Source of the DNA: Eledone cirrhosa
Taxonomy: Eukaryota
Direction: 5' to 3'
DNA length: 64,000 bases
Assembly (NCBI GenBank): GCA_964016885.1
Contig: OZ024742.1
Location: 224,626,001 to 224,690,000 of the forward strand
The position numbers and the translations under genes were made by a program. Positions 389 to 53,142 of this stretch are shown here, piece after piece. The notes under the pieces were generated by a model. It saw nothing but the letters and a program-made list of their open reading frames with translations. It ran no database searches and had not been told where the DNA came from. Position 1 is the first letter of the stretch. Each line of letters starts with the position of its first letter.

Positions 389-839
389 AGTGTGTATCTA
401 CGTATATATGTATGTGTGGGTAATTATATATATATGTGTGTATGTGTGTGTGTGTGTTTATGATGGTCTAACCATGCCAATATACATATATCACTCTCTA
501 TGTATATATCAGTATGAATTTATTTATGTATATAATCATATTTATTTATGTATATAATCATATGTATATAATCATATTTATTTATGTATATAATCATATA
601 TATATAATCATATTTATTTATGTATATAATCATATATATATAATCATATACGTATATATGTATATATAATCAATTATATAATCATATACGTATATATAAA
701 TGAAACAATGTTGTTACAGTGGTTGATGATGCTGTTGTGATTTGCCAATGACGACTTTAGGCAACTTTACACCGTGGCACTTTCATTTGGAAAGAATAAT
801 TCTCCTTCGTAAACAAGTATCAGTTATTTTATTATTATT

Positions 840-1407
840 CAAAACACGCCGGAGTTAGCTTTGTCTTTCAGCCTTTCAGGATCAATGAAATAAAGTACCA
901 GTCACACACTGGTGTCGATTTAATCGAATTTCCCCTCTCCCCAAATATCTGGCCTTGTGCTTATAGTAAAAATCATTATTATTAGTGGATTGGCAGTATC
1001 GGTTGAGGGTCGGACGCCATGCTTTCCAGCATAGTTACGTCCCTTTACGATCTGAGTTCAAATCCCGCCGAGGTTGACTTTGCCTTTCATCCTTACGGGG
1101 TCGATAAAATAAAGTACCAGTGATGTACTGGGTAATTGCTGGCCTTGTGCCTAAAGTAGAAACAATTATTATTATTATTTCAAATCCCGCCGAGGTTACC
1201 TTTCCCTTTCATCCTTACGGGTCGATAAAATAAAGTACCAGTAATGTACTGGGTAATTGCTGGCCTTGTGCCTAAAGTAGAAACAATTATTATTATTATT
1301 TCAAATCCCGCCGAGGTTACCTTTCCCTTTCATCCTTACGGGTCGATAAAATAAAGTACCAGTAATGCACTGGGATAATTGGTGGCCTTGTGCCAATAGT
1401 AGAAACA

Positions 1408-1438
<31 letters not shown>
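840..1438 (+). mobile_element. Tandem array of tRNA-derived Nin-domain SINE copies (partial long variant, one near-full copy 985-1178, two 3'-half copies), each ending in (ATT)n
   Basis: A box TGGCAGTATCGG, B box GAGTTCAAATCC, Nin-like core GCCTTTCATCCTTACGGGGTCGATAAAATAAAGTACC, tail GGCCTTGTGCCTAAAGTAGAAACAATTATT. The family recurs more than 10 times in the window. Confidence 0.85.
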
Positions 1439-3811: not shown

Positions 3812-4985
3812 TATGGCTGGCTGTTTGTCTGGCTGGTCGCCTGGATGAAGGATGGATGGTTGGCTGACAGGGTTTACTGACTGGCTGGTTGCCTGGATGA
3901 GGGATGGATGGTTGGCTGACAGGGGATACTGTCTGGCTGGTTGGCTGGCTGGCTGCCTGGATGAGGGATGGATGGTTGGCTGACAGGGGATACTGTCTGG
4001 CTGGTTGCCTGGATAAAGGATGGATGGTTGGCTGACAGGGGATACTGTCTGGCTGGTTGGCTGGCTGGCTGCCTGGATGAAGGATGGATGGTTGGCTGAC
4101 AGGGTTTACTGACTGGCTGGTTGCCTGGATGAGGGATGGATGGTTGGCTGACAGGGGATACTGTCTGGCTGGTTGCCTGGATGAGGGATGGATGGTTGGC
4201 TGACAGGGGATACTGTCTGGCTGGTTGCCTGGATGAGGGATGGATGGTTGGCTGACAGGGAATACTGACTGGCTGGTTGGCTGGCTGGCTGCCTGGATGA
4301 GGGATGGATGCTTGGCTGACAGGGGATACTGTCTGGCTAGTTGGCTGGCTGGTTGCCTGGATGAAGGATGGATGGTTGGCTGACAGGGGATACTGACTGG
4401 CTGGTTGCCTGGATGAGGGATGGATGGTTGGCTGACAGGAAATACTGTCTGGCTGGTTGGCTGGCTGGCTGTCTGGATGAGGGATGGATGGTTGGCTGAC
4501 AGGAAATACTGTCTGGCTGGTTGGCTGGCTGGCTGCCTGGATGAGGGATGGATGGTTGGCTGACAGGGAATACTGACTGGCTGGTTGGCTGGCTGGCTGC
4601 CTGGATGAGGGATGGATGGTTGGCTGACAGGGAATACTGACTGGCTGGTTGGCTGGCTGGCTGCCTGGATGAGGGATGGATGGTTGGCTGACAGGGAATA
4701 CTGACTGGCTGGTTGGCTGGCTGGTTGCCTGGATGAGGGATGGATGGTTGGCTGACAGGGAATACTGACTGGTTGGTTGGCTGGCTGGTTGCCTGGATGA
4801 GGGATGGATGGTTGGCTGACAGGGAATACTGACTGGCTGGTTGGCTGGCTGGTTGCCTGGATGAGGGATGGATGGTTGGCTGACAGGGAATACTGACTGG
4901 CTGGTTGGCTGGCTGGTTGCCTGGATGAGGGATGGATGGTTGGCTGACAGGGAATACTGACTGGCTGGTTGGCTGGCTGGCTGCT
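3812..4985. repeat. Minisatellite, about 19 units of 64 bp or 52 bp built from TGGC/TGGA tetramers
   Basis: The GACAG anchor recurs at 3866, 3918, 3982 ... 4946 with spacings of 52 or 64. The P/Q/S ORFs here are artefacts. Confidence 0.95.
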
Positions 4986-21597: not shown

Positions 21598-21711
21598 TAA
21601 AAAGGAAAAGAAAATGCTGACAAATTTTTCCCAGTGAAAAATAGTTTAATTAGGAATAAGTATTGGTTAGTATTCAGTTTCAGTTTTAAGCTTTTACCGG
21701 TTGCGCATTTC

Positions 21712-21828
21712 TAATGCTTTTCAAAAATAATTTTGAGATAGAGCGCTCGTGTTGTTTGCTCTAATCTGCTCCAGGATAGAGCAAACATCACGAACGCTCT
21801 ATCTCAAAATTATTTTTGAAAAGCATTA
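21712..21828. repeat. Near-perfect inverted repeat (~57-bp arms) upstream of a hammerhead
   Basis: TAATGCTTTTCAAAAATAATTTTGAGATAGAGCG... and its reverse complement. Confidence 0.85.
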
Positions 21829-22321: not shown

Positions 22322-22531
22322 TATATTGTATTGATTTTTATACATTATATATATATATATATAGTAATAATAATAAATTTGAAGACTAAAATCCAAAGAG
22401 GGCTCGATTCTTTGCTTAAACTTTAATCTGTTATTTTAATAAATATATATATATATAATAAAAAATAAAATTTTCGCTCTACATGGCTGAATACAATAAA
22501 ATGTAATCTGAGTTTTTCGAATGTTAATAAT

Positions 22532-22747
22532 GGTTTCTTTTATAGGCACAAGGCCAGCAATTTTGGAGGAAGGGAAAGTCGATTAAACCGACCCCAGTGC
22601 GTGACTGGTACTTTATTTTATCGACCCCGTAAGGATGAAAGGCAAAGTTAACCTCGGCGGAATTTGAACTCAGATCATAAAGGACCGTAACTCTATGCTG
22701 CAAAGAATGGCGCCCGGCCCTCTACCGATACTGCCAATCCACCGCCC
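22532..22747 (-). mobile_element. Nin-type SINE, long variant, 19-bp TSD
   Basis: TSD TTTTTCGAATGTTAATAAT at 22513-22531 and 22748-22766. Confidence 0.9.
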
Positions 22748-22961
22748 TTTTTCGAATGTTAATAATAACATTCGACTCGTTTACAATTATGCAAACAAGC
22801 CTCAATTTTATAGCCATGTCAGTAGAATGAACCCTGCAGTTCTGTTCACATGCCAACACAAGAGCAAGAATGAAGTGTTCATTCTACTGACATGGCTATA
22901 CATTTGAGGCTCGTTTGCATAATTGCAAACGAATCGAATGTTATTATTAATATTCAAAAAA

Positions 22962-23135
22962 GGGCGGTGGATTGGCAGTATCGGTAGAGGGTCGGACGCC
23001 AAGCATAGAGTTACGGCTCTTGCCATTCTGAGTTCAAATCCCACCGTAGTTAACTCTGCCTTTCATCCTTACGATTAAATAAAGTACCAGTTATACACTG
23101 GGATAATTGCTGGCTTTGTGCCAAAAGTAGAAACA
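22962..23135 (+). mobile_element. Nin-type SINE, short variant, 19-bp TSD
   Basis: TSD ATTATTAATATTC(A/G)AAAAA at 22943-22961 and 23136-23154. Confidence 0.9.
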
Positions 23136-23171
23136 ATTATTAATATTCGAAAAACTCAGATTACATTTATT

Positions 23172-24603
<1,432 letters not shown>

Positions 24604-30078: not shown

Positions 30079-30457
30079 GTGGATTGGCAGTATCGGTAGA
30101 GGATCGGACGCCATGCTTTGCGGCAAAGAGTTACGGTCCTTTATGATCTGAGTTCAAATCCCGCCGAGGTTAACTTTGCCTTTCATCCTTACGGGGTCGA
30201 TAAAATAAAGTACCAGTAATGTACTGGGTATTTGCAGGTCTTGTGCCAAAAGTAGAAACAATTATTTTGTAGTTCCGGTGGATTTGCAGTATTGGTAGAG
30301 AGTCGGACGCCATGCTTTCCAGCATAGTTACGTCCCTTTACGGTCTGAGTTCAAATCCTGCCGAGGTTAACTTTGCCTTTCATCCTTACGGGGCCGATAA
30401 AATAAAGTACCAGTAATGTACTGGGTTATTGCTGGTCTTGTGCCAAAAGTAGAAACA
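30079..30457 (+). mobile_element. Head-to-tail Nin-type SINE dimer
   Basis: Two copies (30079-30265, 30277-30457); ATTATTATAAG at 30069-30079 and 30458-30468. Confidence 0.85.
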
Positions 30458-30815
30458 ATTATTATAAGAGTTATTATTCAAATAAACTCCCTCGAATCAA
30501 CGGCTGAAAAACCATCACCACCATCACCTTCATCATCATGATCATCACTAGTATACCCCGCTCGATATCACTATATATCCTTTACAATAGCAGAAAGAAA
30601 TACCAACAATCTTCCACATGAATGTGAAATGTAGAAATCCTAGCTGCCTTCTCTCGCGTTCTCTCTTTTTCTCTCCGTCTTAACAATATATTAAGACATA
30701 TTTATAGAGAGAGAGACAGGGAGAAACTCACTCTCACACATAAAAATACATGCACGTGTATATGTACGTGTGTATGTTTGTATGTGTACATATACACACA
30801 CACTTATATATATAT

Positions 30816-36832: not shown

Positions 36833-37007
36833 TTTATATTAAAATAAAAACAGATACAGCTACACATTAACAGAGACTGCTTGATGGAACATAAAACATT
36901 GACATAAAAAATGAGTTCATTTATGTCCAGCAATTAATTAATTAACTGAATGATAATTAACTTTAAATTGTTATTATCATTATTATCATCATTATTATAA
37001 TTTTCCA

Positions 37008-37365
37008 ATCTGAGTTCAAATCCAGCCGAGGTTAACTTTGCCTTTCATCCTTACGAGGTTGATAAAATAAAGTACCAGTAATACACTGGGTCTTTGCTGG
37101 CCTTGTGCCAAAAGTAGAAACAATTATTATAATTATTAACTTTGCCTTTCATCCTTACAGGGTCGATAAAATAAAGCACCAGTAATGCACTGGGGAAATT
37201 GATGGCCTTGTGGCAAAGGTAGAAACATTTGCCTTTCATCCTTACGGGGTCGATAACATAAAGTACCAGTCACGCACTGAGGTCGATTTAATCGACTTTT
37301 CCCTCCCTTTAAAAAATTGCTGGCCTTATGCCTAAAGTAGAAAGAATTATTATTATTATTTTTAT
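37008..37365 (+). mobile_element. Three tandem 5'-truncated Nin-type SINE 3' halves in ATT-rich sequence
   Basis: TTTGCCTTTCATCCTTAC..GTCGATAA..GGCCTT.TG..AAAG(G)TAGAAA occurs three times, mixing short and long variants. Confidence 0.8.
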
Positions 37366-43013: not shown

Positions 43014-43360
<347 letters not shown>

Positions 43361-44100
43361 GCCAACATAATAAAAAATGGGTGCAGCCCATTATGCCGTG
43401 TATGCAAAAAACAACCAGAGACCATTGACCATATAATTTCAATGTGCAGTCCTATAGCTCCAACGGAATACCTAAACAGGCATGACAGAGCTGCACAATA
43501 CATACATTGGATAATGTGTAAGCATTTTGACCTGCCCCATCAAAAGAATTGGTGGGAGCATCAACCACCTCCCATACTTGAAAAAGATCACATCTCAATC
43601 TTGTGGAACTTTAGCATCCAAACAGACCGAAAAATAGATGCAAATAGACCTGATATAATATTGAAGGACTTTCAAAGGAGGGTATGCCTGCTAATTGATA
43701 TGTCTGTTCCAATAGACAAGAATGTATCTATAAAAACATTTGAAAAATTGAGCAAGTATAAGGACCTGGAGATAGAAATTGGAAAAATGTGGAAATTGAG
43801 AACTAAAACAATACCAGTGGTTGTAGGCGCTCTGGGAATGATACCTAAGGGGTCTAACGACTACTTATCGCAAATCCCAGGAAACCCGCGTATAGGAGAA
43901 ATACAAAAGATAGTACTAATGGGAACTGCCCATATACTAAGGAAGATCCTGTCAATATAAGTACATCACAAGTCTAAACACTAAGGATGCATGTGTGAAT
44001 ATGTGTGTTCTTTCTTGAACATGGCGGACCTTGTTGTCTCTTGAGGTCACTGGTTGTGACTTGGTGATAACTCGTATAAACATAAAGCAAGATAAATGCA
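43361..44100 (+). mobile_element. R4/Dong-type RLE retrotransposon, family A, 5'-truncated
   Basis: CCHC finger CRVCKKQPETIDHIISMC, RHD, and RPDIIL..LIDMSVP...K..KY..L RLE motifs; stop at 43960; (AAT)n on both sides. Confidence 0.9.
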
Positions 44101-44136
<36 letters not shown>

Positions 44137-46058
44137 CAGGAGGTTTTTGTCATTCAGTATGAAGACATGGAAAACGACACTCCTTTTGAATAGTGAAACA
44201 AAATCACTGGAAGCTGGAGAAGTTAATATTAATTGTGGAATTTTTCAGGGTGACTCTTTAATACCGCTTTTATTCTGCATCGCACTTATACCATTAAGTA
44301 AAATGCTCAATGAAACAAAACATGGATATAAAGTCTATGACAAAACCATTAATCACTTGTTCTACATGGATGACCTGAAACTATTTGCAAAAAACGATGA
44401 ACAATTGCAAGGGCTATTATCCACTGTGGAGCAGTTCAGTGATGACATTAAAATGGAGTTTGGACTAGATAAATGCGCCAAAGCAACGTTCACCAGAGGA
44501 AAGCTGCTGAAAAGTTCAGACATTAATCTTGATCGGGGGAATGTGATAAGAGAACTTGATCAAGAGGAAACTTACAAATATCTAGGTGTTTGTGAAGGAG
44601 ACGGAATCAAGCACTCGACAATGAGGGAAAGGATAAGGAAGGAATGTTACCGCAGAGTAAGAGCAATCTTAAGAACGGAATTGAATGCAAGGAATAGGAT
44701 CGATGCCATAAACACGCTTGCCATACCAGTAGTAACCTACAGTTACAATGTCATCAACTGGTCAAGCACAGAGATCTGTAGGCTCGATACAAAAATTCGA
44801 AAATTCTTAACCATGCACAGAATGCATCACCCTAAGACAGATACAGATAGAATATATCTCCCTAGGAAAGAAGGACGACGTGGGTTAATCCAGTTAGACA
44901 TTGCGTTGAAAACTGCAACAATTGGATTATCTACATATCTAAGGGAATCACATGATTGGATGATCAAACTCGTTTTGAAACACGAAAGCATCAAAAGATC
45001 ATAATCCATTACAAAAGATGCACAAAGATACAGTAATGGACTACAAATTTCAGAAGTCCCATTTACTGCTGAAATGGAAAACACAGAAAAATCAAAGCAG
45101 GTAAAAGTAACTGCAAAGAAAGAACTGCTACATAAACTGGCTAAGAAATAGCAAGAAAAGCCTCTGTATGGAAAATACCCAGAACGAGCTAACAATCCTG
45201 ATATTGACAAAACTTTAACCCATCAGTGGTTGGCATCCTCTGGACTGAAATCGGAGACTGAAGGTCTGATTATATCAGCACAAGATCAGTGTCTGCCAAC
45301 AAAAAATTACCAAGCCAACATAATAAAAAATGGATGCAGCCCATTATGCCGTGTATGTAAAAAACAACCAGAGACCATCGACCATATAATTTCAATGTGC
45401 AGTCCTATAGCTCCAACCGAATACCTAAACAGGCATGACAGAGCTGCACAATACATACATTGGATAATGTGTAAGCATTTTGACCTGCCCCCATCAAAAG
45501 AATTGGTGGGAGCATCAACCACCTCCCATACTTGAAAAAGATCACATCTCAATCTTGTGGAACTTTAGCATCCAAACAGACCGAAAAATAGATGCAAATA
45601 AACCTGATATAATACTGAAGGACTTTAAAAAGAGGGTATGCCTGCTAATTGATATGTCCGTTCCAATAGACAAGAATGTATCTATAAAAACATTTGAAAA
45701 ATTGAGCAAGTATAAGGACCTGAAGATAGAAATTGGAAAAATGTGGAAATTGAGAACTAAAACAATACCAGTGGTTGTAGGCGCTCTAGGAATGATACCT
45801 AAGGGGTCTAATGATTACTTATCACAAATCCCAGGAAACCCGCGTATAGGAGAAATACAAAAGATAGTACTAATGGGAACTGCCCATATACTAAGGAAGA
45901 TTCTGTCAATATAAGTACATCATAAGTCTAAACACCTAAAGATGCATGTGTGAGTATGTATGTTCTTTCTTGAACATGGCGGACCTTGTTGTCTCTTGAG
46001 GTCACTGGTTGTGACTTGGTGATAACTCGTATGAACATAAAGCAAGATAAATGCAGCT

Positions 46059-46060
<2 letters not shown>
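44137..46060 (+). pseudogene. R4/Dong-type family A copy with RT, CCHC and RLE, disabled
   Basis: GIFQGDSL, HLFYMDDLKL, FGLDKCA and YKYLG RT motifs; stops at ~45002 and ~45149; one extra C at ~45490 relative to the 43361 copy. Confidence 0.9.
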
Positions 46061-46117
<57 letters not shown>

Positions 46118-46118
<1 letters not shown>

Positions 46119-47034
46119 TGCTCAGAGCTGTACTGAAGGAGGGGACAGTAGGCCAGGGGATACCCAAGGAGGAAATAACATCAAGGAGGAAGAGCAGCCT
46201 TAAGGGAAAATCCCTTCATAGTACCTTCTTTGAGAAAACTGAATTTAGAGATCCACAGACATGGAACTGGTTGAGAAGAGGAGACCCCAAAAAGGCTACA
46301 GAAGGAATGCTAATGGCTGCGCAGGAGCAGGCCCGCAAAACGAAGTGGTTGAAGCACCATATCTACAAGGAGGAGGCTAGCCCACTGTGCAGGATCTGTG
46401 GAGAGAGAGAGGAGACTGTGGCTCACATTGTGTCCGAGTGTAAACACCTAGCCCAGACCCACTATAAGGGCTGGAGACACGATGTGATGGGCAGGGTGAT
46501 CCACTGGCACCTGTGCAAAGTAAACAATCTACCACATTCTGAGAAATGGTATGAGCATAGGCCAGAGGCGGTGATGGAGAACAGTCAGGTGAAGGTGCTG
46601 TGGGATTTTAGGATACAGACGGACAAAAAACTGGAACACAATAGACCTGACCTGGTGGTTGTGGACAAAGAAAAAAGATCGTGCCTGATTGTGGATGTGG
46701 CCTGCCCGTTCGACACGAGAGTGCAAGAGAAGGAGAGGGAGAAAATTAACCGATACCAGGACCTAAAGTGGGAGGTGAAAAGGATTTGGAACTGCCATGA
46801 AGTCAAAGTGATCCCGATTGTCATAGGCGCACTGGGGACTATCTCCAAAGGTTTCCAGGGATGGTTAAAGAAAATCGGCCCCTTCACGCTTTTTGGAACG
46901 CTTCAAAAGGCATGCTTGCTTGGAACGGCAAGAACCCTCCGATACGTCCTGAATATCTGAGGCTGCAGGTAGTGGCTTGATATTCAATCCAACGGACTTT
47001 CCAGTTAACCAACATCAATGACTGAGATTCAAGG
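46118..47034 (+). mobile_element. R4/Dong-type RLE retrotransposon, family B, 5'-truncated
   Basis: AAQEQA, CRICGEREETVAHIVSEC, RHD, RPDLVVVD..IVDVACP...EKINRYQDL; stop at 46960; (AAT)n flanks. Confidence 0.9.
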
Positions 47035-47046
47035 AATAACAATAAC

Positions 47047-47090
<44 letters not shown>

Positions 47091-47350
47091 TTTCTTTATT
47101 AACCACAAGGGTTTACATAAAGTAGACATTAAGGACAGTGCAGGACAATGCAGGACGGTACAAATGGGCATTTCTGCGTGTAAAAAAACAAAAACAGAGG
47201 ATGTAACAAAAATAACAATGAAAATAACAATGAAAAATTCCCCAATAGGGGGGAGACTTCGGAGGGACATTTGTGGAGAAAGCCCAGTAAAAAGCCACAA
47301 TGACCCTGACCACCAAGGCAAGTGCCCTCTCCCAGTTTTCCACCTTTAGT

Positions 47351-50300
47351 TTACAGATATATACTCAGAGTCGACCCATTCACTCGGGCCATTCTTGCTT
47401 CTCTCACCCATCTTTCAACAAAATGCTGGGAAGAGAGCACTTCCTTCTCTACTCTGATTTTCCTTTTCAAATGAAATTTGAAAAAGTCAATCAGAGCATC
47501 ACCGAAGAGGTAAGTGCTCGTCTTCAGCCCTTTCAAACGTGTCCACCATACTATCTCTTTCGCCATGGCCACCAGACAGATAAAAACTGCCTGCCCTTCC
47601 CGGCTAAAGGAGGAGGGCGGGGCAATCCTCACGATAGACTCAGATGATAGCTGGATCCGTCCTAAACGCGACAGCAGGTGTTCGACATAAACCCACAAGT
47701 CAGCAATTTTCGGACACTGGACGAGTGCGTGCAGGACGGTTTCGTCGCCCTGCGCGCATCTCGGACATGCCCGGCTGACGGCACCTCCATGCCTGTAGAG
47801 TTTATCCCGAACTGGCAAGGCTCCTCGGTAGCACTGCCAGGCCAGAGATTTCTGGAAGTTGTCCATAGGCCCTGGCCCGAAAGTTCTTCCGAAGAGATTG
47901 GCTAGTTGATTTTCGTCGACGCCTAGAGTTTCCCCAAGTACGTCGTCGCTCTTCCCCTCCACTAATCCTCTATAGAACGCCGAGGTGGAGTTTCCACCGA
48001 TCACATTGCCCGATTGGTCGAGGGCTGTGAGCGCCTGAAGACATTCCAGTCTCCAGGCGCTCCCTCTCGGTCTTCGCTTGACCCAGGACTGCAGCTCCGT
48101 CAAGGAAACGAGCTGGGGAAAAACGCGTCTAGCAAACGGCGACCACACCTGATCACCGTCGAGGAAGAGGTGGAGATGTCGTAGCCTGAGCGCGTGCCTG
48201 CGCATCATCAGCCACGGCATGCCCAGCCCTCCACGTAGCGGGTGTTGACAACAGATGGACCGCCTGACCATCGGAGCACGTCCCTTCCACAAAAAGCGAA
48301 AGAGCAAACGCTCCAGCGCAGTCAGGCGAGGCTTAGGACAAGGTACGACGGTTAGGCGGTAGCAGATGACAGACGCGATGTACGCGTTAGCCACCTCCGC
48401 TCGACCTTTCAGGGATAGCTTCCTCTCCGCCCATTTCTGGGTGAGAGAAGCCACCCTGCTCGTCACCTCGTCCCAGTTTTTGTCCGTCTGGAGGTCCGGA
48501 CCGAACCAGACCCCTAGCAATTTAACCGGTCCGTCCGTCCAGCGCCCGACGACGCTGTTGGACGGCATGGACCTGCCTCTCCAGGTGCCGAGCTGCAGGC
48601 CCACTGACTTTTCCTGGTTGATCATTGCTCCTGTCACCGCTTCGTATTCTCTTAGTGTAGTGCCGATCGCCTCGATGTGTTTGGCGTTCGACACCACTAC
48701 GGTGACATCGTCCGCATATGCTGACACGGATCTTCCGCATCCTAGTTCGCGCGGGACTCCCCTCAACGTCTCCAGTTTGTGCAGTAATGGCTCGAGAGTC
48801 AATACGTACAAGAGGGACGAGAGGGGACATCCTTGGCGGACCGAGCGCATGATGTTGAACGGTTCCGACAGGTGACCGTTCACTCTCACCACAGAGCAGA
48901 TGTCGCTGTGCATGGCAGCGATCCAGCCTCTGAAGACGGGCCCAAAGCCAGCCGCCCTCAGGACTGCCGCTAGGTAACGATGGTCGACCCTATCGAAAGC
49001 TTTCGACTGATCTAAATTGATCAAGGACCCACCCGTGCCAGGTTCCCTAGCTACCCTCTCTACGATGTATCGCATGAGGTGGAGGTTGTCGTGGATGGAT
49101 CTGTCGGGAATGGCGCATGTCTGCGCCTCTCCCACCAGACCACCAACGACAAGCGCCAACCTCTTTGCTAGCACCTTGGCCAAAATCTTAAACTCTGTGT
49201 TTAGCAGAGTTATGGGCCGGAAATTGTCTATGTTATCCCCCTTGTTCGGATCCTTTCTCAGCAGTGCCACCGCTCCTCGGCTCACAGAACTGGGAATTCT
49301 CCCGTTCTGTTGCCAGTTGCAGTAGACGTCCGCCAAGAGGCCTCCGAACAAGTCTGGCATCTGTACGTAAAGTTCATAGGGCAGACCATCCAAACCAGGC
49401 GATTTACCCCTTGTGCAGCCAGTCATTGCCTCCCGTACTTCAGCGGCTGTTATCGGCTTTTCGCAACACCTCGCCTCAGTGGCCGAGAGCCGCGGCAGTC
49501 CGTCGAGGTAGACACTAAAGTCCATCCCTCTACCCGGCCCCCCGCTGCCCCCGAACAGCTGAGCGAAGTGTCGCTGAAAAGCTTCACACATTTGCCCGGG
49601 ATCGAGTAGCATGCGCCCGTCGTGGTCCACCAAAGACCGGATCGTGGCTTTGTTGCCACGACGCGCCTCCGCCACTCGGGCCCATTGAACGGCTTTCGTC
49701 CCCTCGTGTCTGAGAGCACGCACCCTAGCTCTGACAACGCAGCCTTCGTGCTTTGCATTGAAGAATTGGTCAAGGGCCAATTTCGCCGCAAGCACGTCGG
49801 TCGCAATGCCTTTGCTAAGCGCCTCGTCTAATTTTCTAACTAGTTCTCCCTCTGCTCTATTTTTCTCTATTGCTAAAGCCTTACTAAACCTAATCGATTC
49901 TATTCTAATCGCTCTTTTCAGAGCAAACCACCACTTGTTGTTGACGATGGCCCCCGTCAACGCCCGCTTAACTAGTTCGCTAATCCGGTCTCTGTAGGCC
50001 TTGCGCGCTGGTAAGGACGCGTTTAGCTTCCAGTAGCCGGGTCCTCGTCTATGAAGCCTATCTAAGTCAAGCACACAGGTCACGAATTTGTGGTCCGTGT
50101 AGCTGACTATCTTGAATTGTGGACAGCCTATGCTAGACCTATCTATTTCCCTACAAAATACTCTATCTAGATATGATCTGGATGACCCTATGCGGTTTGT
50201 CCAAGTCCACATTGGCACATTCGGGAAATCCAATCGGTACCTGTCAGACAGTTCAAAACGCCTGAGCAGGTTGGTGAGGCTCTTGCACCCTCCACCCCTA

Positions 50301-50770
50301 TCCGCTAATCCCACACAGTCCCAGCGTGCATCTAAGATCCCGTTCCAGTCGCCCACTAACACTAAAGAGCGGGACGTTCCAAGAAAGGTCTCCAGACGCC
50401 GGAAGAAATCAGGCCGCCCTGCTCCTGTCGGGGCATAGACGGCCACTAGCCTGAAAGCTTTCCCGTCTCCGCTGGTCACGTCCAGCACCACCAGCTTACC
50501 CTCTGGGTCCAGGAAGATGGCCCGTATGGCGAGATCCAAACCTCTCCGAAAAAGCACAGCAACTCCTCCACCCGATCCAGGACGGCTGGGAGATGCGTAC
50601 ACATCGTAGCCGCCGAAGATCGGTGCGAAGGCCCGTGCTTCGGAGATTCTGGTCTCGCTGATGGCCACTACATCTATGTTTAGTGACCTGAGGTCGTTGA
50701 GCAGGTGACCCTGCTTCCATGACGACCCCAAGCCACGCGCATTTATGCTGCCTATTCTGAGTGAGGTCAT
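47351..50770 (-). CDS. LINE ORF2: APE endonuclease, reverse transcriptase and C-terminal zinc finger (1139 aa, open)
   Basis: APE: SINARGL, ISET, VGDWN, YLDR, TDH. RT: FRPITLLN, LDQSKAFDRVDH, VRQGCPLS, AYADD. Zinc finger: CPRC..GDETVLHALVQC. Confidence 0.95.
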   Translation of the reverse strand: MTSLRIGSINARGLGSSWKQGHLLNDLRSLNIDVVAISETRISEARAFAPIFGGYDVYASPSRPGSGGGVAVLFRRGLDLAIRAIFLDPEGKLVVLDVTSGDGKAFRLVAVYAPTGAGRPDFFRRLETFLGTSRSLVLVGDWNGILDARWDCVGLADRGGGCKSLTNLLRRFELSDRYRLDFPNVPMWTWTNRIGSSRSYLDRVFCREIDRSSIGCPQFKIVSYTDHKFVTCVLDLDRLHRRGPGYWKLNASLPARKAYRDRISELVKRALTGAIVNNKWWFALKRAIRIESIRFSKALAIEKNRAEGELVRKLDEALSKGIATDVLAAKLALDQFFNAKHEGCVVRARVRALRHEGTKAVQWARVAEARRGNKATIRSLVDHDGRMLLDPGQMCEAFQRHFAQLFGGSGGPGRGMDFSVYLDGLPRLSATEARCCEKPITAAEVREAMTGCTRGKSPGLDGLPYELYVQMPDLFGGLLADVYCNWQQNGRIPSSVSRGAVALLRKDPNKGDNIDNFRPITLLNTEFKILAKVLAKRLALVVGGLVGEAQTCAIPDRSIHDNLHLMRYIVERVAREPGTGGSLINLDQSKAFDRVDHRYLAAVLRAAGFGPVFRGWIAAMHSDICSVVRVNGHLSEPFNIMRSVRQGCPLSSLLYVLTLEPLLHKLETLRGVPRELGCGRSVSAYADDVTVVVSNAKHIEAIGTTLREYEAVTGAMINQEKSVGLQLGTWRGRSMPSNSVVGRWTDGPVKLLGVWFGPDLQTDKNWDEVTSRVASLTQKWAERKLSLKGRAEVANAYIASVICYRLTVVPCPKPRLTALERLLFRFLWKGRAPMVRRSICCQHPLRGGLGMPWLMMRRHALRLRHLHLFLDGDQVWSPFARRVFPQLVSLTELQSWVKRRPRGSAWRLECLQALTALDQSGNVIGGNSTSAFYRGLVEGKSDDVLGETLGVDENQLANLFGRTFGPGPMDNFQKSLAWQCYRGALPVRDKLYRHGGAVSRACPRCAQGDETVLHALVQCPKIADLWVYVEHLLSRLGRIQLSSESIVRIAPPSSFSREGQAVFICLVAMAKEIVWWTRLKGLKTSTYLFGDALIDFFKFHLKRKIRVEKEVLSSQHFVERWVREARMARVNGSTLSIYL

Positions 50771-50805
50771 GTTTAAAATAGAGTGGAAAAGATGGGAAAG
50801 ACCAC

Positions 50806-52902
50806 TTACCGTACTTTTGGTAGAGGAGGGATGGTTTTTACATCCCTTTTCACTTGATCGTCTGGTGAAGGGACCGTTGAATCGTCCCTTCGGCTGGTCG
50901 TCGGCTCTTCTAAGAGAATGTCTGAATATACTCTTCGATTGATGGTTCCTCCTAGGTCCCTGAAATCACCAACTGCGTTGGGGAATTTCGTTTTAATGTT
51001 TGTGTATTGTTTCTGTGCTATTTTTAGCAGTCTTATGTTAGTTGGCGTTTTGATTGGTGCTGGTATTATGTAGTCCTGTTGTGAAATGTCTGTGTGTTCA
51101 ATTATGTAAGTCATTAGTTTCTTGTTGTGTGTGTTTATTGCCGTGCATTTGTTTTTCTGGGGGTGGGGTGTGGTTCTGCTATTTTCTTGTCGTTGTTGCT
51201 GGGTGTGTGTGTTTTGTTGTTGTGTTTGCGATGTTGGTGCTTGTGGTGGTGGTGTTGAAGGTGTTGTTGGCGGTGGGGTTGTCGCCGGTGGTGATGGTGG
51301 TGCTGGTCTGGGTGGTGATGGTGTTGGTGGTGTTGCTGCTGTGGGTCTCTTTGCAGTAGACTTTACCCTTTTCTCATTTCTTTCCTCCCTTTTCAAAGGC
51401 GACGATGCGCTGCTTCTGCGTTTGTGCCTTCTTGCGACCTTTTGCCATCCCTCTCCCACCTCACACTCCATGTCTGATTCTGTAAGGTCGGGGAGGGGTA
51501 CCAGCTCCACTCTTTCACTTGTTGTTGTTGGTGATGTTTGCACTGGAGTCTCTGTTGCAGCTGCATTTGGTATTGCTGTTGTTGTTGTTAATATTTCCAC
51601 TGCTGCTGCTGTCTTTGATTTCCGTGGAGTGGGTATGGGTGCCACGGACCTATCGTTCCTGGTTGCCGCTTGTCCTGTTGCTGGTAGCCGTGGAGCCGGA
51701 TTCGGAAGGAGGGGGGTTTTCTCCTTTCTCAGGGTCTTCTCGTTGCAGAAGGCCCTGAGGTGAGTCTTCGATCCACAGCGAAAGCATTTCGGGCGTTTGC
51801 CCTCAACACTTATGGGCAGTTGAGTGCCGTTATCGAAGTCTATCACATCCGGGATAGCTTCGATGCACTCCTGGTTGGTTTGGATTAGCATCTCAATGGA
51901 GGAGCCGACCCAATCTTCTCTTACTTTTTTCTGTACTTGCAGTACAGTTGTTTTGTCCTCGATTCCGACGAGGACAGACGCGGCCAGCCAAGAAGGGGTC
52001 ATTCCGGGGGGGACGTGGGTCAGTTTGACCCTCACAATTTTTTGCCCGCAGTAGGAGGGCACCAACACCATTTCCTCGCTCCTTAGGGTCACTACTGATT
52101 GGGCCTTTGCCTCCTGGGGTGTGGCAAAAAGTACGTCTACGGTGGCGTATTTTTTGCCTCGGGTGATGTGCGTTTTCCTCTGCCACACAGACCCCAAGGC
52201 TTTTTGTATTTGGGCCTCTGTGGCTCTTTCCACCCTACGGGATTTTGTACTTACTGTACGGTACGTGACCGTACAGTGCTCTTGGGTTTCGAAAAAATTT
52301 TTCGCTGCCTTGCAGATTGCTCGGTGTCCGTTCTTTGTCACCATCTTCTTCGCTTCCTCTAATTCCTCATTTGTTATGAGGATTGTTTCCAAGTTTTTCG
52401 CAATACCTGCAAATGAGATTGGTTTTTCTCTGCTGTTGTTGTTGTCGTCAGAGCTGCTGGTACTTTTGTTGTTGCTGCAGGTACTACGACTACTGCCTCC
52501 GCCGCTGTTGCTGTGGTTGTTGTTGGTGTTGCTGCTGCTAATGCTGTTGTTGTTTATGCTGCTGGTGATGCTGTTGCGGCTGCTACTGTTGTTTTCATTG
52601 TCACTGTTGCTGTTGTTATTACGGCTGCTACTGCTATTATTCCTGACGTCAGACGAATGAACTGGGTTTTCGTATTTCCCGCACACCTGTTTCGTCGCTG
52701 TCGTCGTCGTCGTGGAGAAACCTTGCACGCTTTGCACGAGACTTTTCTTTTCTTTCGTCGCTTGCGAAAGAGAAGGGAGGGAGAGAGACACATTTAAAGA
52801 AGGGAGGGAGAGAGACAATCTTCTCTCTGCTGTAGTGATGATTGAGGAAGAAGAAGACGGAATGAGTGGGAGTGACGTATGAAATTTCTTTTTCGTAGCC
52901 AT
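50806..52902 (-). CDS. LINE ORF1, gag-like nucleic-acid-binding protein (698 aa from first ATG)
   Basis: Zinc knuckle CFRCGSKTHLRAFC, an SFAGIAK motif, a Ser/Asn-rich N-terminus and a Pro/Thr-rich region; ATG at 52902. Confidence 0.85.
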   Translation of the reverse strand: MATKKKFHTSLPLIPSSSSSIITTAERRLSLSLPSLNVSLSLPSLSQATKEKKSLVQSVQGFSTTTTTATKQVCGKYENPVHSSDVRNNSSSSRNNNSNSDNENNSSSRNSITSSINNNSISSSNTNNNHSNSGGGSSRSTCSNNKSTSSSDDNNNSREKPISFAGIAKNLETILITNEELEEAKKMVTKNGHRAICKAAKNFFETQEHCTVTYRTVSTKSRRVERATEAQIQKALGSVWQRKTHITRGKKYATVDVLFATPQEAKAQSVVTLRSEEMVLVPSYCGQKIVRVKLTHVPPGMTPSWLAASVLVGIEDKTTVLQVQKKVREDWVGSSIEMLIQTNQECIEAIPDVIDFDNGTQLPISVEGKRPKCFRCGSKTHLRAFCNEKTLRKEKTPLLPNPAPRLPATGQAATRNDRSVAPIPTPRKSKTAAAVEILTTTTAIPNAAATETPVQTSPTTTSERVELVPLPDLTESDMECEVGEGWQKVARRHKRRSSASSPLKREERNEKRVKSTAKRPTAATPPTPSPPRPAPPSPPATTPPPTTPSTPPPQAPTSQTQQQNTHTQQQRQENSRTTPHPQKNKCTAINTHNKKLMTYIIEHTDISQQDYIIPAPIKTPTNIRLLKIAQKQYTNIKTKFPNAVGDFRDLGGTINRRVYSDILLEEPTTSRRDDSTVPSPDDQVKRDVKTIPPLPKVR

Positions 52903-53142
52903 GTTTTTTTTGTTTAAAATGAAATTTTGGGTACAAAACCCCAATAACTGGTTATTTAACCCCGAAGGGCCAAATAACGGACAGAAAGACCCCTCTCACG
53001 AGGAGGAGGGTGTCTTTATCAACAATTTGGTTCAAGTTTTAAACAATTTACAATTGTTTTAACGGTTAAAAATTACTATACCTTACAGAGCCGAGCCTCC
53101 GTCAACCATGGCATTCAATAATAATAATAATAATAATAATAA

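What the first reader, a model, noticed from the sequence alone, without database searches (positions are those of the whole stretch)
22495..23170. Two different SINE variants inserted at the mirror-image nucleotide of an inverted repeat
Seen: a ~680-bp inverted repeat carries a SINE at the equivalent site in both arms, each with its own 19-bp TSD, and the TSDs are near reverse complements. The left SINE is the long variant (extra GGTCGGTTTAATCGACTTTCCC segment) and the right is the short variant. Arm-specific differences are also reflected in each TSD pair. Inference: these are two independent insertions at the same target sequence, which is evidence of sequence-specific targeting and fixed second-strand nick spacing.
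Basis: partly seen in the sequence, partly recalled or inferred. Interest (0 to 1): 0.72.

Follow-up and report, generated by a model that had tools for sequence, protein, structure and literature searches.

The report
Two SINE hits on mirrored target
Two different versions of a short jumping element sit at the same base in the two arms of a mirror-image repeat, likely because each landed separately on an ATTATT site that this element uses all over the genome; about one in six copies of that site is filled, so the double hit is a tidy but ordinary result of a known kind of targeting.

Summary
A palindromic repeat carries a long-subfamily SINE (22532-22747, minus) and a short-subfamily SINE (22962-23135, plus) at mirror positions, with 19-bp duplications. 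They differ at subfamily-diagnostic sites and share no clear private change, so two insertions are very likely.

The site is a genome-wide hot spot: 706 of 4332 exact copies carry a SINE end at this base, and 12 of 43 other facing arm pairs with a filled arm are doubly filled (10 different, 2 copied arm to arm). The SINE targets ATTAT(T) everywhere, and used sites are re-hit at 17%, so the host is simply a good target.

'Fixed second nick' is not supported: 87 filled sites show 73 different 5' junctions; full-length copies peak at 18 bp. The apparent 19 is a minority, but typical of the older long subfamily.

The host is likely a Penelope-type, hammerhead-like repeat; the driver is likely an L1/Tx1-group LINE with the same tail hairpin. 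This scan noted the ATTAT-targeting SINE, the Tx1-like partner and palindromic retrozymes before on other DNA of this genome. Closest precedent: SINEU and Tx1-Mar in Mariner-N4.

The parts
22460..22512 (-). Host repeat, outer left segment with the ~35-nt extension (long end); likely the Penelope-type 'tail'
   Evidence: long+short ends in 40 of 44 and 21 of 24 facing arm pairs
22513..22531 (-). Left target-site duplication, downstream copy (19 nt, carries arm-specific C)
22532..22747 (-). Full-length SINE, long subfamily (216 nt; 10/216 from long consensus)
22748..22766 (-). Left target-site duplication, upstream copy (identical to 22513-22531)
22767..22839 (-). Host repeat, inner left arm (inverted, 5'-truncated copy of the ~436-bp unit)
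22840..22942 (+). Host repeat, inner right arm; begins at about the predicted hammerhead cut site; the ribozyme core itself is absent from this copy
22943..22961 (+). Right target-site duplication, upstream copy (19 nt, one CG to CA change)
22962..23135 (+). Full-length SINE, short CTTGCCATT subfamily (174 nt, two private deletions; 10/173 from its subfamily consensus)
23136..23154 (+). Right target-site duplication, downstream copy
23155..23169 (+). Host repeat, short end
23173..24603 (.). (TA)n array flanking the host; a short TA run also lies at about 22445-22458
47089..52995 (-). L1/Tx1-group LINE (APE endonuclease, RT, zf-RVT in ORF2 47354-50965) with the same tail hairpin and ATT end; candidate driver family, not part of the locus

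Best explanation
Two SINEs of different subfamilies sit at the same base of the two arms of a palindromic repeat, and they very likely arrived by two separate retrotransposition events onto the same ATTATT target, which each arm carries. Shown: the SINE family lands at ATTAT(T) genome-wide; about 16-25% of host sites are filled at this exact base; 5' junctions vary widely, with a peak near 18 bp for full-length copies. Inferred steps: (1) a Penelope-type enzyme inserted a non-autonomous ~436-bp repeat into (TA)n as a sense copy plus an inverted truncated copy, so two identical targets faced each other; (2) the arms began to diverge (left T to C); (3) an L1/Tx1-group LINE protein bound the SINE RNA's 3' hairpin, nicked the bottom strand just before ATTAT, primed on the RNA's AUU end and copied it, once per arm; (4) the second strand was resolved about 18-19 bases on, as is usual for full-length copies of these older subfamilies. 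The order of the two insertions cannot be told.
For: SINEs differ at 25 of 174 aligned sites plus four indels; ranks 96 and 98 of 138. Left is 10/216 from the long consensus and 20/187 from the CTTGC one; right 10/173 from CTTGC and 22/174 from long; only one column shares a state under 20% frequency (G at 0.19, beside the long insert). Left C is in both left duplication copies, T in both right copies. Host site: 4332 exact, 706 + 11 preceded by a SINE end; 1372 filled versus 4100 empty at up to 1 mismatch. 10 of 12 other doubles differ in 5' junction. Four SINEs 2/185 apart sit in hosts 7-11% apart. Background 1 Mb: ATTA opens the upstream duplication copy in 56-57 of 58; used sites re-hit 22 of 128. 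LINE tail hairpin with the same loop, different stem, same spacing; LINE-type ends at the same host base in 3 of 4 matches.
Against: Both arms full-length with apparent 19 bp is rare: the only such pair among 34 matches, hand estimate 0.05-0.1 expected genome-wide. Arm-to-arm copying does occur in this family (2 of 12 doubles, L101 0/179, L114 1/105), and the partner arm is filled in 17 of 48 (35%, CI 22-51%), a little above the 16-25% base rate. The LINE partnership rests on tail and target likeness only; no tree with reference Tx1 elements was built. Rfam found no hammerhead in the host and 5' ends show no clear peak at the predicted cut (6 of 167).
Confidence: 0.82

Rival explanations
1. 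One SINE inserted, was copied to the other arm by fold-back repair or conversion (giving both the 19-bp junction), and one copy was later overwritten by another subfamily.
For: Arm-to-arm copies exist (L101, L114). Matching full-length 19-bp junctions are rare. Full replacement of one Alu by another subfamily is reported (PMC554112, passages).
Against: Needs two extra events. Diagnostic differences run from about position 64-73 to the last base. The C/T variant sits in both duplication copies of each arm, so neither flank was copied from the other. True copied pairs have near-identical arms; these arms differ (3 and 4 of 82 from consensus, at different sites).
Confidence: 0.07
2. The host site is specially targeted beyond the ATTAT motif because it is the loop of a small AT-rich palindrome (TCGAATRTT-ATTATT-AATATTCGA) that can extrude as a hairpin.
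For: Host occupancy 16.3% (CI 15.2-17.4) against 2.7% for any ATTATT and roughly 2-7% for the same 10-mer elsewhere; no local SINE excess around hosts (130 and 162 per Mb versus 129).
Against: Perfect-stem and mismatched-stem hosts are filled alike (27 A: 38 G among 65 scored of 87 filled, versus 1023: 1761 empty; P = 0.44). Previously used sites outside the host are re-hit at the same 17%, though tandem copies could also arise in other ways.
Confidence: 0.12
3. The many filled sites are passengers: a few host-plus-SINE composites were amplified by the host's own mobility.
For: One filled site recurs in at least 6 near-identical 3-kb segments (L186-L191; 11 listed matches share its variant).
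Against: Those are copies of a larger segment, flanks included. 73 distinct junctions in 87 sites; near-identical SINEs lie in diverged hosts.
Confidence: 0.03
4. The SINE is driven by the abundant Dong/R4-like REL elements that target TAA repeats rather than by the L1/Tx1-group LINE.
For: Dong/R4-like copies are common here and sit in AAT runs (clade label recalled); Dong-R4 is abundant in Octopus vulgaris (PMC13282606, part 1 of 3); the EhLINE1 REL enzyme prefers GCATT (PMC1635306, passages).
Against: Their 3' ends share nothing with the SINE tail and end in AAT on the sense strand, the opposite polarity to the SINE's ATT.
Confidence: 0.06

Closest known systems
SINEU and Tx1-Mar in Mariner-N4_AMi of crocodilians (PMC4494074, passages)
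   Same: A SINE repeatedly inserted at set positions inside another abundant transposon, with tandem copies separated by a duplication, both duplications and target truncations, and a Tx1 LINE hitting the same target.
   Different: Here the SINE head is tRNA-like, the target is a short motif used genome-wide (host sites are about 0.5% or less of an estimated 386,000 SINE ends), the host is likely a Penelope-type palindrome, and SINE and LINE share a 3' hairpin.
Tx1L in Tx1D; Kibi and Koshi in microsatellites (as cited in PMC4494074)
   Same: APE-type, Tx1-clade target preference for a repeat or microsatellite-like motif.
   Different: ATT-type target; a SINE passenger far outnumbers the LINE at the site (706 versus 3). 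Clade membership of the LINE here was not tested on a tree.
Penelope-like elements and animal non-LTR retrozymes (PMC8557442, PMC4209133, PMC11167929, bioRxiv 10.64898/2026.07.22.740005; passages)
   Same: Host shows tandem units, an inverted 5'-truncated copy, a 30-40 nt tail at one end, (TA)n flanks and a type I hammerhead-like core with the extra A before stem II.
   Different: One extra base before GAAA; no Rfam hit; no ORF; this copy lacks the ribozyme core; partner PLE not identified.
Parallel and near-parallel Alu insertions and Alu replacement by conversion (PMC554112, passages)
   Same: Different subfamilies at equivalent sites; the same independent-versus-conversion question.
   Different: Those are rare and tens of bases apart; here the same base is hit hundreds of times.
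RTE-related SINEs whose duplication start matches the 3' microsatellite tail (PMC6007223, abstract and outline)
   Same: First bases of the duplication match the element's tail repeat.
   Different: Candidate driver here is L1/Tx1-group, not RTE.

Membership tests
tRNA-derived SINE | Short, high-copy, non-coding, 5'-truncated copies with variable duplications | tested here: met
   129 3' ends per Mb; truncation and duplication spectrum
tRNA-derived SINE | tRNA-like head with A and B boxes | tested here: inconclusive
   Box-like TGGCAGTATCGG and GAGTTCAAATCC seen by eye (box consensus recalled); ARAGORN 0 genes; no tRNA hit in Rfam
MetaSINE or CORE-SINE superfamily | Shared central domain | not testable with these tools
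   Consensus is in figures; supplement search gave no usable sequence and file 1 was not searchable
Tx1-dependent SINE | 3' end shared with the LINE | tested here: met
   CTTGT-type loop, 3-4 bp stem, 12 nt to the junction in both; 252 of 294 SINE tails and 26 of 30 LINE-type tails with 3-4 pairs. Similarity is short.
Tx1-dependent SINE | Same target as the LINE | tested here: met
   LINE-type ends at the same host base in L182, L184, L185 (3 of 4 matches; host on both sides seen in 2)
Tx1-dependent SINE | LINE belongs to the Tx1 clade | tested here: inconclusive
   APE, RVT_1, zf-RVT; best solved relative human L1 ORF2, E 3e-52; no reference tree
Tx1-dependent SINE | Trans-mobilisation shown | not testable with these tools
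   Needs a cell or in vitro assay
PLE-derived non-autonomous repeat (retrozyme-like) | Tandem units, inverted truncated copy, tail at one end, (TA)n flanks | tested here: met
   436-bp spacing in L007; long+short ends in 40 of 44 and 21 of 24 pairs; TA flanks
PLE-derived non-autonomous repeat (retrozyme-like) | Type I hammerhead ribozyme in each unit | tested here: inconclusive
   CTGATGA-A-GGG..CCC-A-GAAAC..GTC with a pairing stem I in 65 motif matches; no Rfam hit at E 1; no clear 5'-end peak at the cut; cleavage untested
MITE (class II foldback) | Fixed terminal inverted repeats with symmetric ends | tested here: not met
   Ends are asymmetric, the centre junction varies and the unit also occurs in direct tandem
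Strictly site-specific non-LTR element (R1/R2 type) | One long target, fixed second-strand cut | tested here: not met
   Target is a 5-6 nt motif genome-wide; duplications run from target deletion to 22 bp

The most novel reading that the evidence does not exclude
Thousands of identical host sites act as a natural in vivo target assay, and they show that second-strand resolution shifted between SINE waves: the older long subfamily ends at 19 bp (7 of 24 in the 19-bp set, 0 of 33 in the 18-bp set, P = 0.0013), the youngest at 18. If this is not just a 5' A on some source RNAs, it records a change in the driving LINE enzyme, and the same panel could define what makes an ATTAT site about six times better than average.
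Probability: 0.3. Interest if true: 0.55.

Novelty: new member of a known kind. Interest (0 to 1): 0.33.

Why it matters
It is a clean case of exact-base SINE homoplasy: with about one in six good sites filled, the same base is hit again and again by different subfamilies, which is a caution for using these SINEs as ancestry markers. The host family also gives thousands of identical targets for measuring first-nick precision (exact) and second-strand spacing (loose, mode about 18) without an assay, and a rough rate of arm-to-arm copying (2 of 12 doubles). The principle, a SINE sharing its LINE's preferred site inside another transposon, is known.

Tried and rejected
The repeat finder was swamped by the (TA)n array. 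Dong/R4 as driver: rejected on tail sequence and polarity. Class II MITE as host: rejected on asymmetric ends and tandem units. Hairpin-stem targeting: no difference between stem variants, P = 0.44. Regional SINE excess around hosts: not seen. Rfam gave only microsatellite-driven miRNA matches below gathering score. Peak of 5' ends at the hammerhead cut: weak, 6 of 167, with indels blurring the count. A subfamily-specific 5' A as the cause of 19 bp: A precedes GGG in 7 of 7 long and 9 of 9 CTTGC background copies but also in 12 of 12 duplication-bearing young copies, some host-derived, so unresolved. The double count had filter faults and is superseded. Public runs laid as contigs piled repeats on the stretch, none spanned it: no information on alleles or order. 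Paper searches for this host-SINE nesting listed nothing describing it; the library lacks most subscription papers and Repbase, and supplement file 1 of PMC4824008 could not be searched, so absence from print is not shown. Look-up of earlier notes by sequence gave nothing.

Full report
Setting. The window is G000:C3:224626001-224690000 in a 3.0-Gb animal genome, AT-rich and full of microsatellites. That it is octopus-like is my recollection of similar SINEs and the wording of earlier notes, not a call result.

Observation. The two arms align as an inverted repeat. The left SINE (22532-22747, minus) has identical 19-nt flanks; the right (22962-23135, plus) has 19-nt flanks with one CG to CA change. 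Both 3' ends meet the same host base. The left has the 28-nt extra segment.

Two insertions or one? In an alignment of 139 near-full-length copies the two differ at 25 of 174 sites, and each ranks the other 96th and 98th of 138. The left is 10/216 from the consensus of 16 long copies; the right is 10/173 from the consensus of 27 CTTGC copies; cross-distances are 20/187 and 22/174. The differences match subfamily states at positions 69-73, 145-148, 158-185 and 204-216. One column shares a state under 20% frequency (0.19, next to the long insert, where gaps lower the count). The inner arms are 3 and 4 of 82 from the host consensus at different sites. The left arm's C lies in both of its duplication copies and the right has T in both, so the left insertion came after that change and neither flank was copied from the other.

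The site is a hot spot. The host core has 1863 first-look candidates; 5 of 25 other top copies carried a SINE at the same base. The exact 24-nt site occurs 4332 times, 706 preceded by the short SINE end and 11 by the long end: 16.3%, CI 15.2-17.4. At up to one mismatch there are 1372 filled and 4100 empty. In 82 loci chosen by an exact filled junction on contig C1, 43 facing arm pairs were found: 31 single, 12 double; 10 doubles differ in 5' junction and 2 (L101, L114) are near-identical copies. So double filling is common (hand estimate about 130 or more elements), usually independent, sometimes copied. Passenger amplification does not explain it: 87 filled sites give 73 distinct junctions, and four SINEs 2/185 apart sit in hosts 7-11% apart. 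One cluster is a duplicated larger segment (L186-L191).

Targeting is genome-wide. In 100 evenly placed 10-kb stretches (1 Mb) there are 129 SINE 3' ends; of 58 with a detectable duplication of 10 nt or more, 56-57 start the upstream copy with ATTA, 51 and 47 continue T, T, and the base before is never G. The motif is thus in the target, not only in the tail. Any ATTATT is filled at 2.7% (56 of 2085); the host's 10-mer elsewhere at roughly 2-7% (total estimated from 31 hits). But a site already used once is followed by another, diverged SINE in 22 of 128 cases, 17%, the host's rate. The host therefore looks like an ordinary good site. What makes a site good beyond six bases is open; the small palindrome round it is not supported (P = 0.44, 65 scored of 87), nor is a regional excess.

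Second-strand spacing. Of 87 filled sites, 24 are full-length (10 at 18 bp, 9 at 9-16, 5 unscored), 28 nearly full and 35 truncated, running from target deletion to 22 bp; none scored 19. Genome-wide the 18-bp junction matches 101 times (about 11 from the duplicated segment) and the 19-bp one 34 times, the window's two included. In the background, full-length duplications run 7-23 nt with a peak at 16-18, and 16 of 46 had none detected. So spacing is preferred, not fixed. It depends on subfamily: among host insertions, long copies are 7 of 24 in the 19-bp set (28 of the 32 non-window matches fetched, 4 dropped as non-host) and 0 of 33 in the 18-bp set (40 of 101 fetched, 7 dropped), P = 0.0013; long plus CTTGC 12 of 24 versus 4 of 33, P = 0.003. 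Long copies are older (median divergence 7.9% versus 3.2% for the youngest). Both window SINEs belong to the subfamilies that favour 19, which eases the coincidence; it remains the only double-19 among 34 matches (hand estimate 0.05-0.1 expected). Whether the extra base is target or a 5' A of the RNA is unresolved.

The host. It is the 3' part of a ~436-bp unit that also occurs in direct tandem. Facing arms end one long and one short in 40 of 44 and 21 of 24 pairs, usually in TA runs. This matches the Penelope-like layout of an inverted truncated copy, a 30-40 nt tail at one end and microsatellite bias (PMC8557442, passages; tail origin in PMC11167929, passages). The unit holds a type I hammerhead-like core in 65 motif matches with the unpaired base before stem II described for PLE ribozymes (PMC4209133, passages), but one extra base before GAAA, no Rfam hit and no clear end peak at the cut. 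I call it likely PLE-derived and retrozyme-like (bioRxiv 10.64898/2026.07.22.740005, passages). Earlier notes describe 310- and 467-bp families of this kind in the same genome; I reached the hammerhead and PLE reading before that look-up.

The driver. Tested: Dong-like 3' ends do not resemble the SINE tail and have the opposite polarity. A LINE in this window (3' end 47089, minus) encodes APE, RT and zf-RVT domains, is closest to L1 ORF2 among solved structures, and ends in a hairpin with the same loop, a different stem and the same distance to an ATT end as the SINE. LINE-type ends occur at the very same host base in 3 of 4 pattern matches. The partnership is inferred; the Tx1 label is from recall and earlier notes, not a tree.

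Comparison. The nearest precedent is SINEU with Tx1-Mar in Mariner-N4_AMi (PMC4494074, passages): a SINE and its LINE hitting set positions in another transposon, with tandem copies. Other papers seen: PMC554112 (passages), PMC1635306 (passages), PMC4824008 (passages and supplement search), PMC13282606 (part 1 of 3), PMC6007223 (abstract and outline). Searches listed no paper on this nesting; that does not show absence from print.

Verdict. Real, well explained, and of a known kind: two likely independent insertions on a motif this SINE uses everywhere. What this locus adds is the host family as a panel of identical targets, showing an exact first nick, a loose second-strand step, a subfamily shift from 19 to 18 and occasional arm-to-arm copying. 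Interest 0.33.

Noticed in passing
L101:700-1560 and L114:900-1510: Palindromic hosts with the same SINE insertion in both arms (0/179 and 1/105 differences) and near-identical flanks; L101 has the long end on both sides. Looks like recent arm-to-arm copying or fold-back repair.
   Followed up: partly
L186-L191: A segment of at least 3 kb with one host-plus-SINE is repeated at 98-99.7% identity on contigs C16, C19, C20, C27; 11 listed matches share its variant. A larger mobile or duplicated unit, not identified.
   Followed up: partly
window 21666-21774: A separate near-perfect ~110-nt hairpin repeat (MITE-like) just upstream; gave a sub-threshold Rfam miRNA match.
   Followed up: no
window 43300-47089: Several Dong/R4-like REL-type LINE fragments stacked in AAT runs and inserted into the ATT tail of the L1/Tx1-group LINE; same arrangement in L137 and L143.
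   Followed up: partly
window 838-1419, 30079-30464, 37002-37357: Head-to-tail SINE clusters, one with an inverted truncated SINE in front (838-981); consistent with re-use of the regenerated ATTAT target.
   Followed up: partly
L183:about 1150-1530: At the host target, after a SINE, an AT-rich ~80-nt insert ending like the LINE tail (AATAAAGAAATC) with its own duplication; origin unclear.
   Followed up: no
L009, L028, L030 and window 22513-22531: The T to C host variant recurs and perfects the small palindrome round the target; may be template-switch correction.
   Followed up: no
L035, L114, L115: Recurrent 5' truncation at SINE position 81, where SINE TTCAAA resembles host TTCGAAA: microhomology-guided junction.
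   Followed up: partly
window 3881-4984: 64-bp minisatellite, 18 copies.
   Followed up: no
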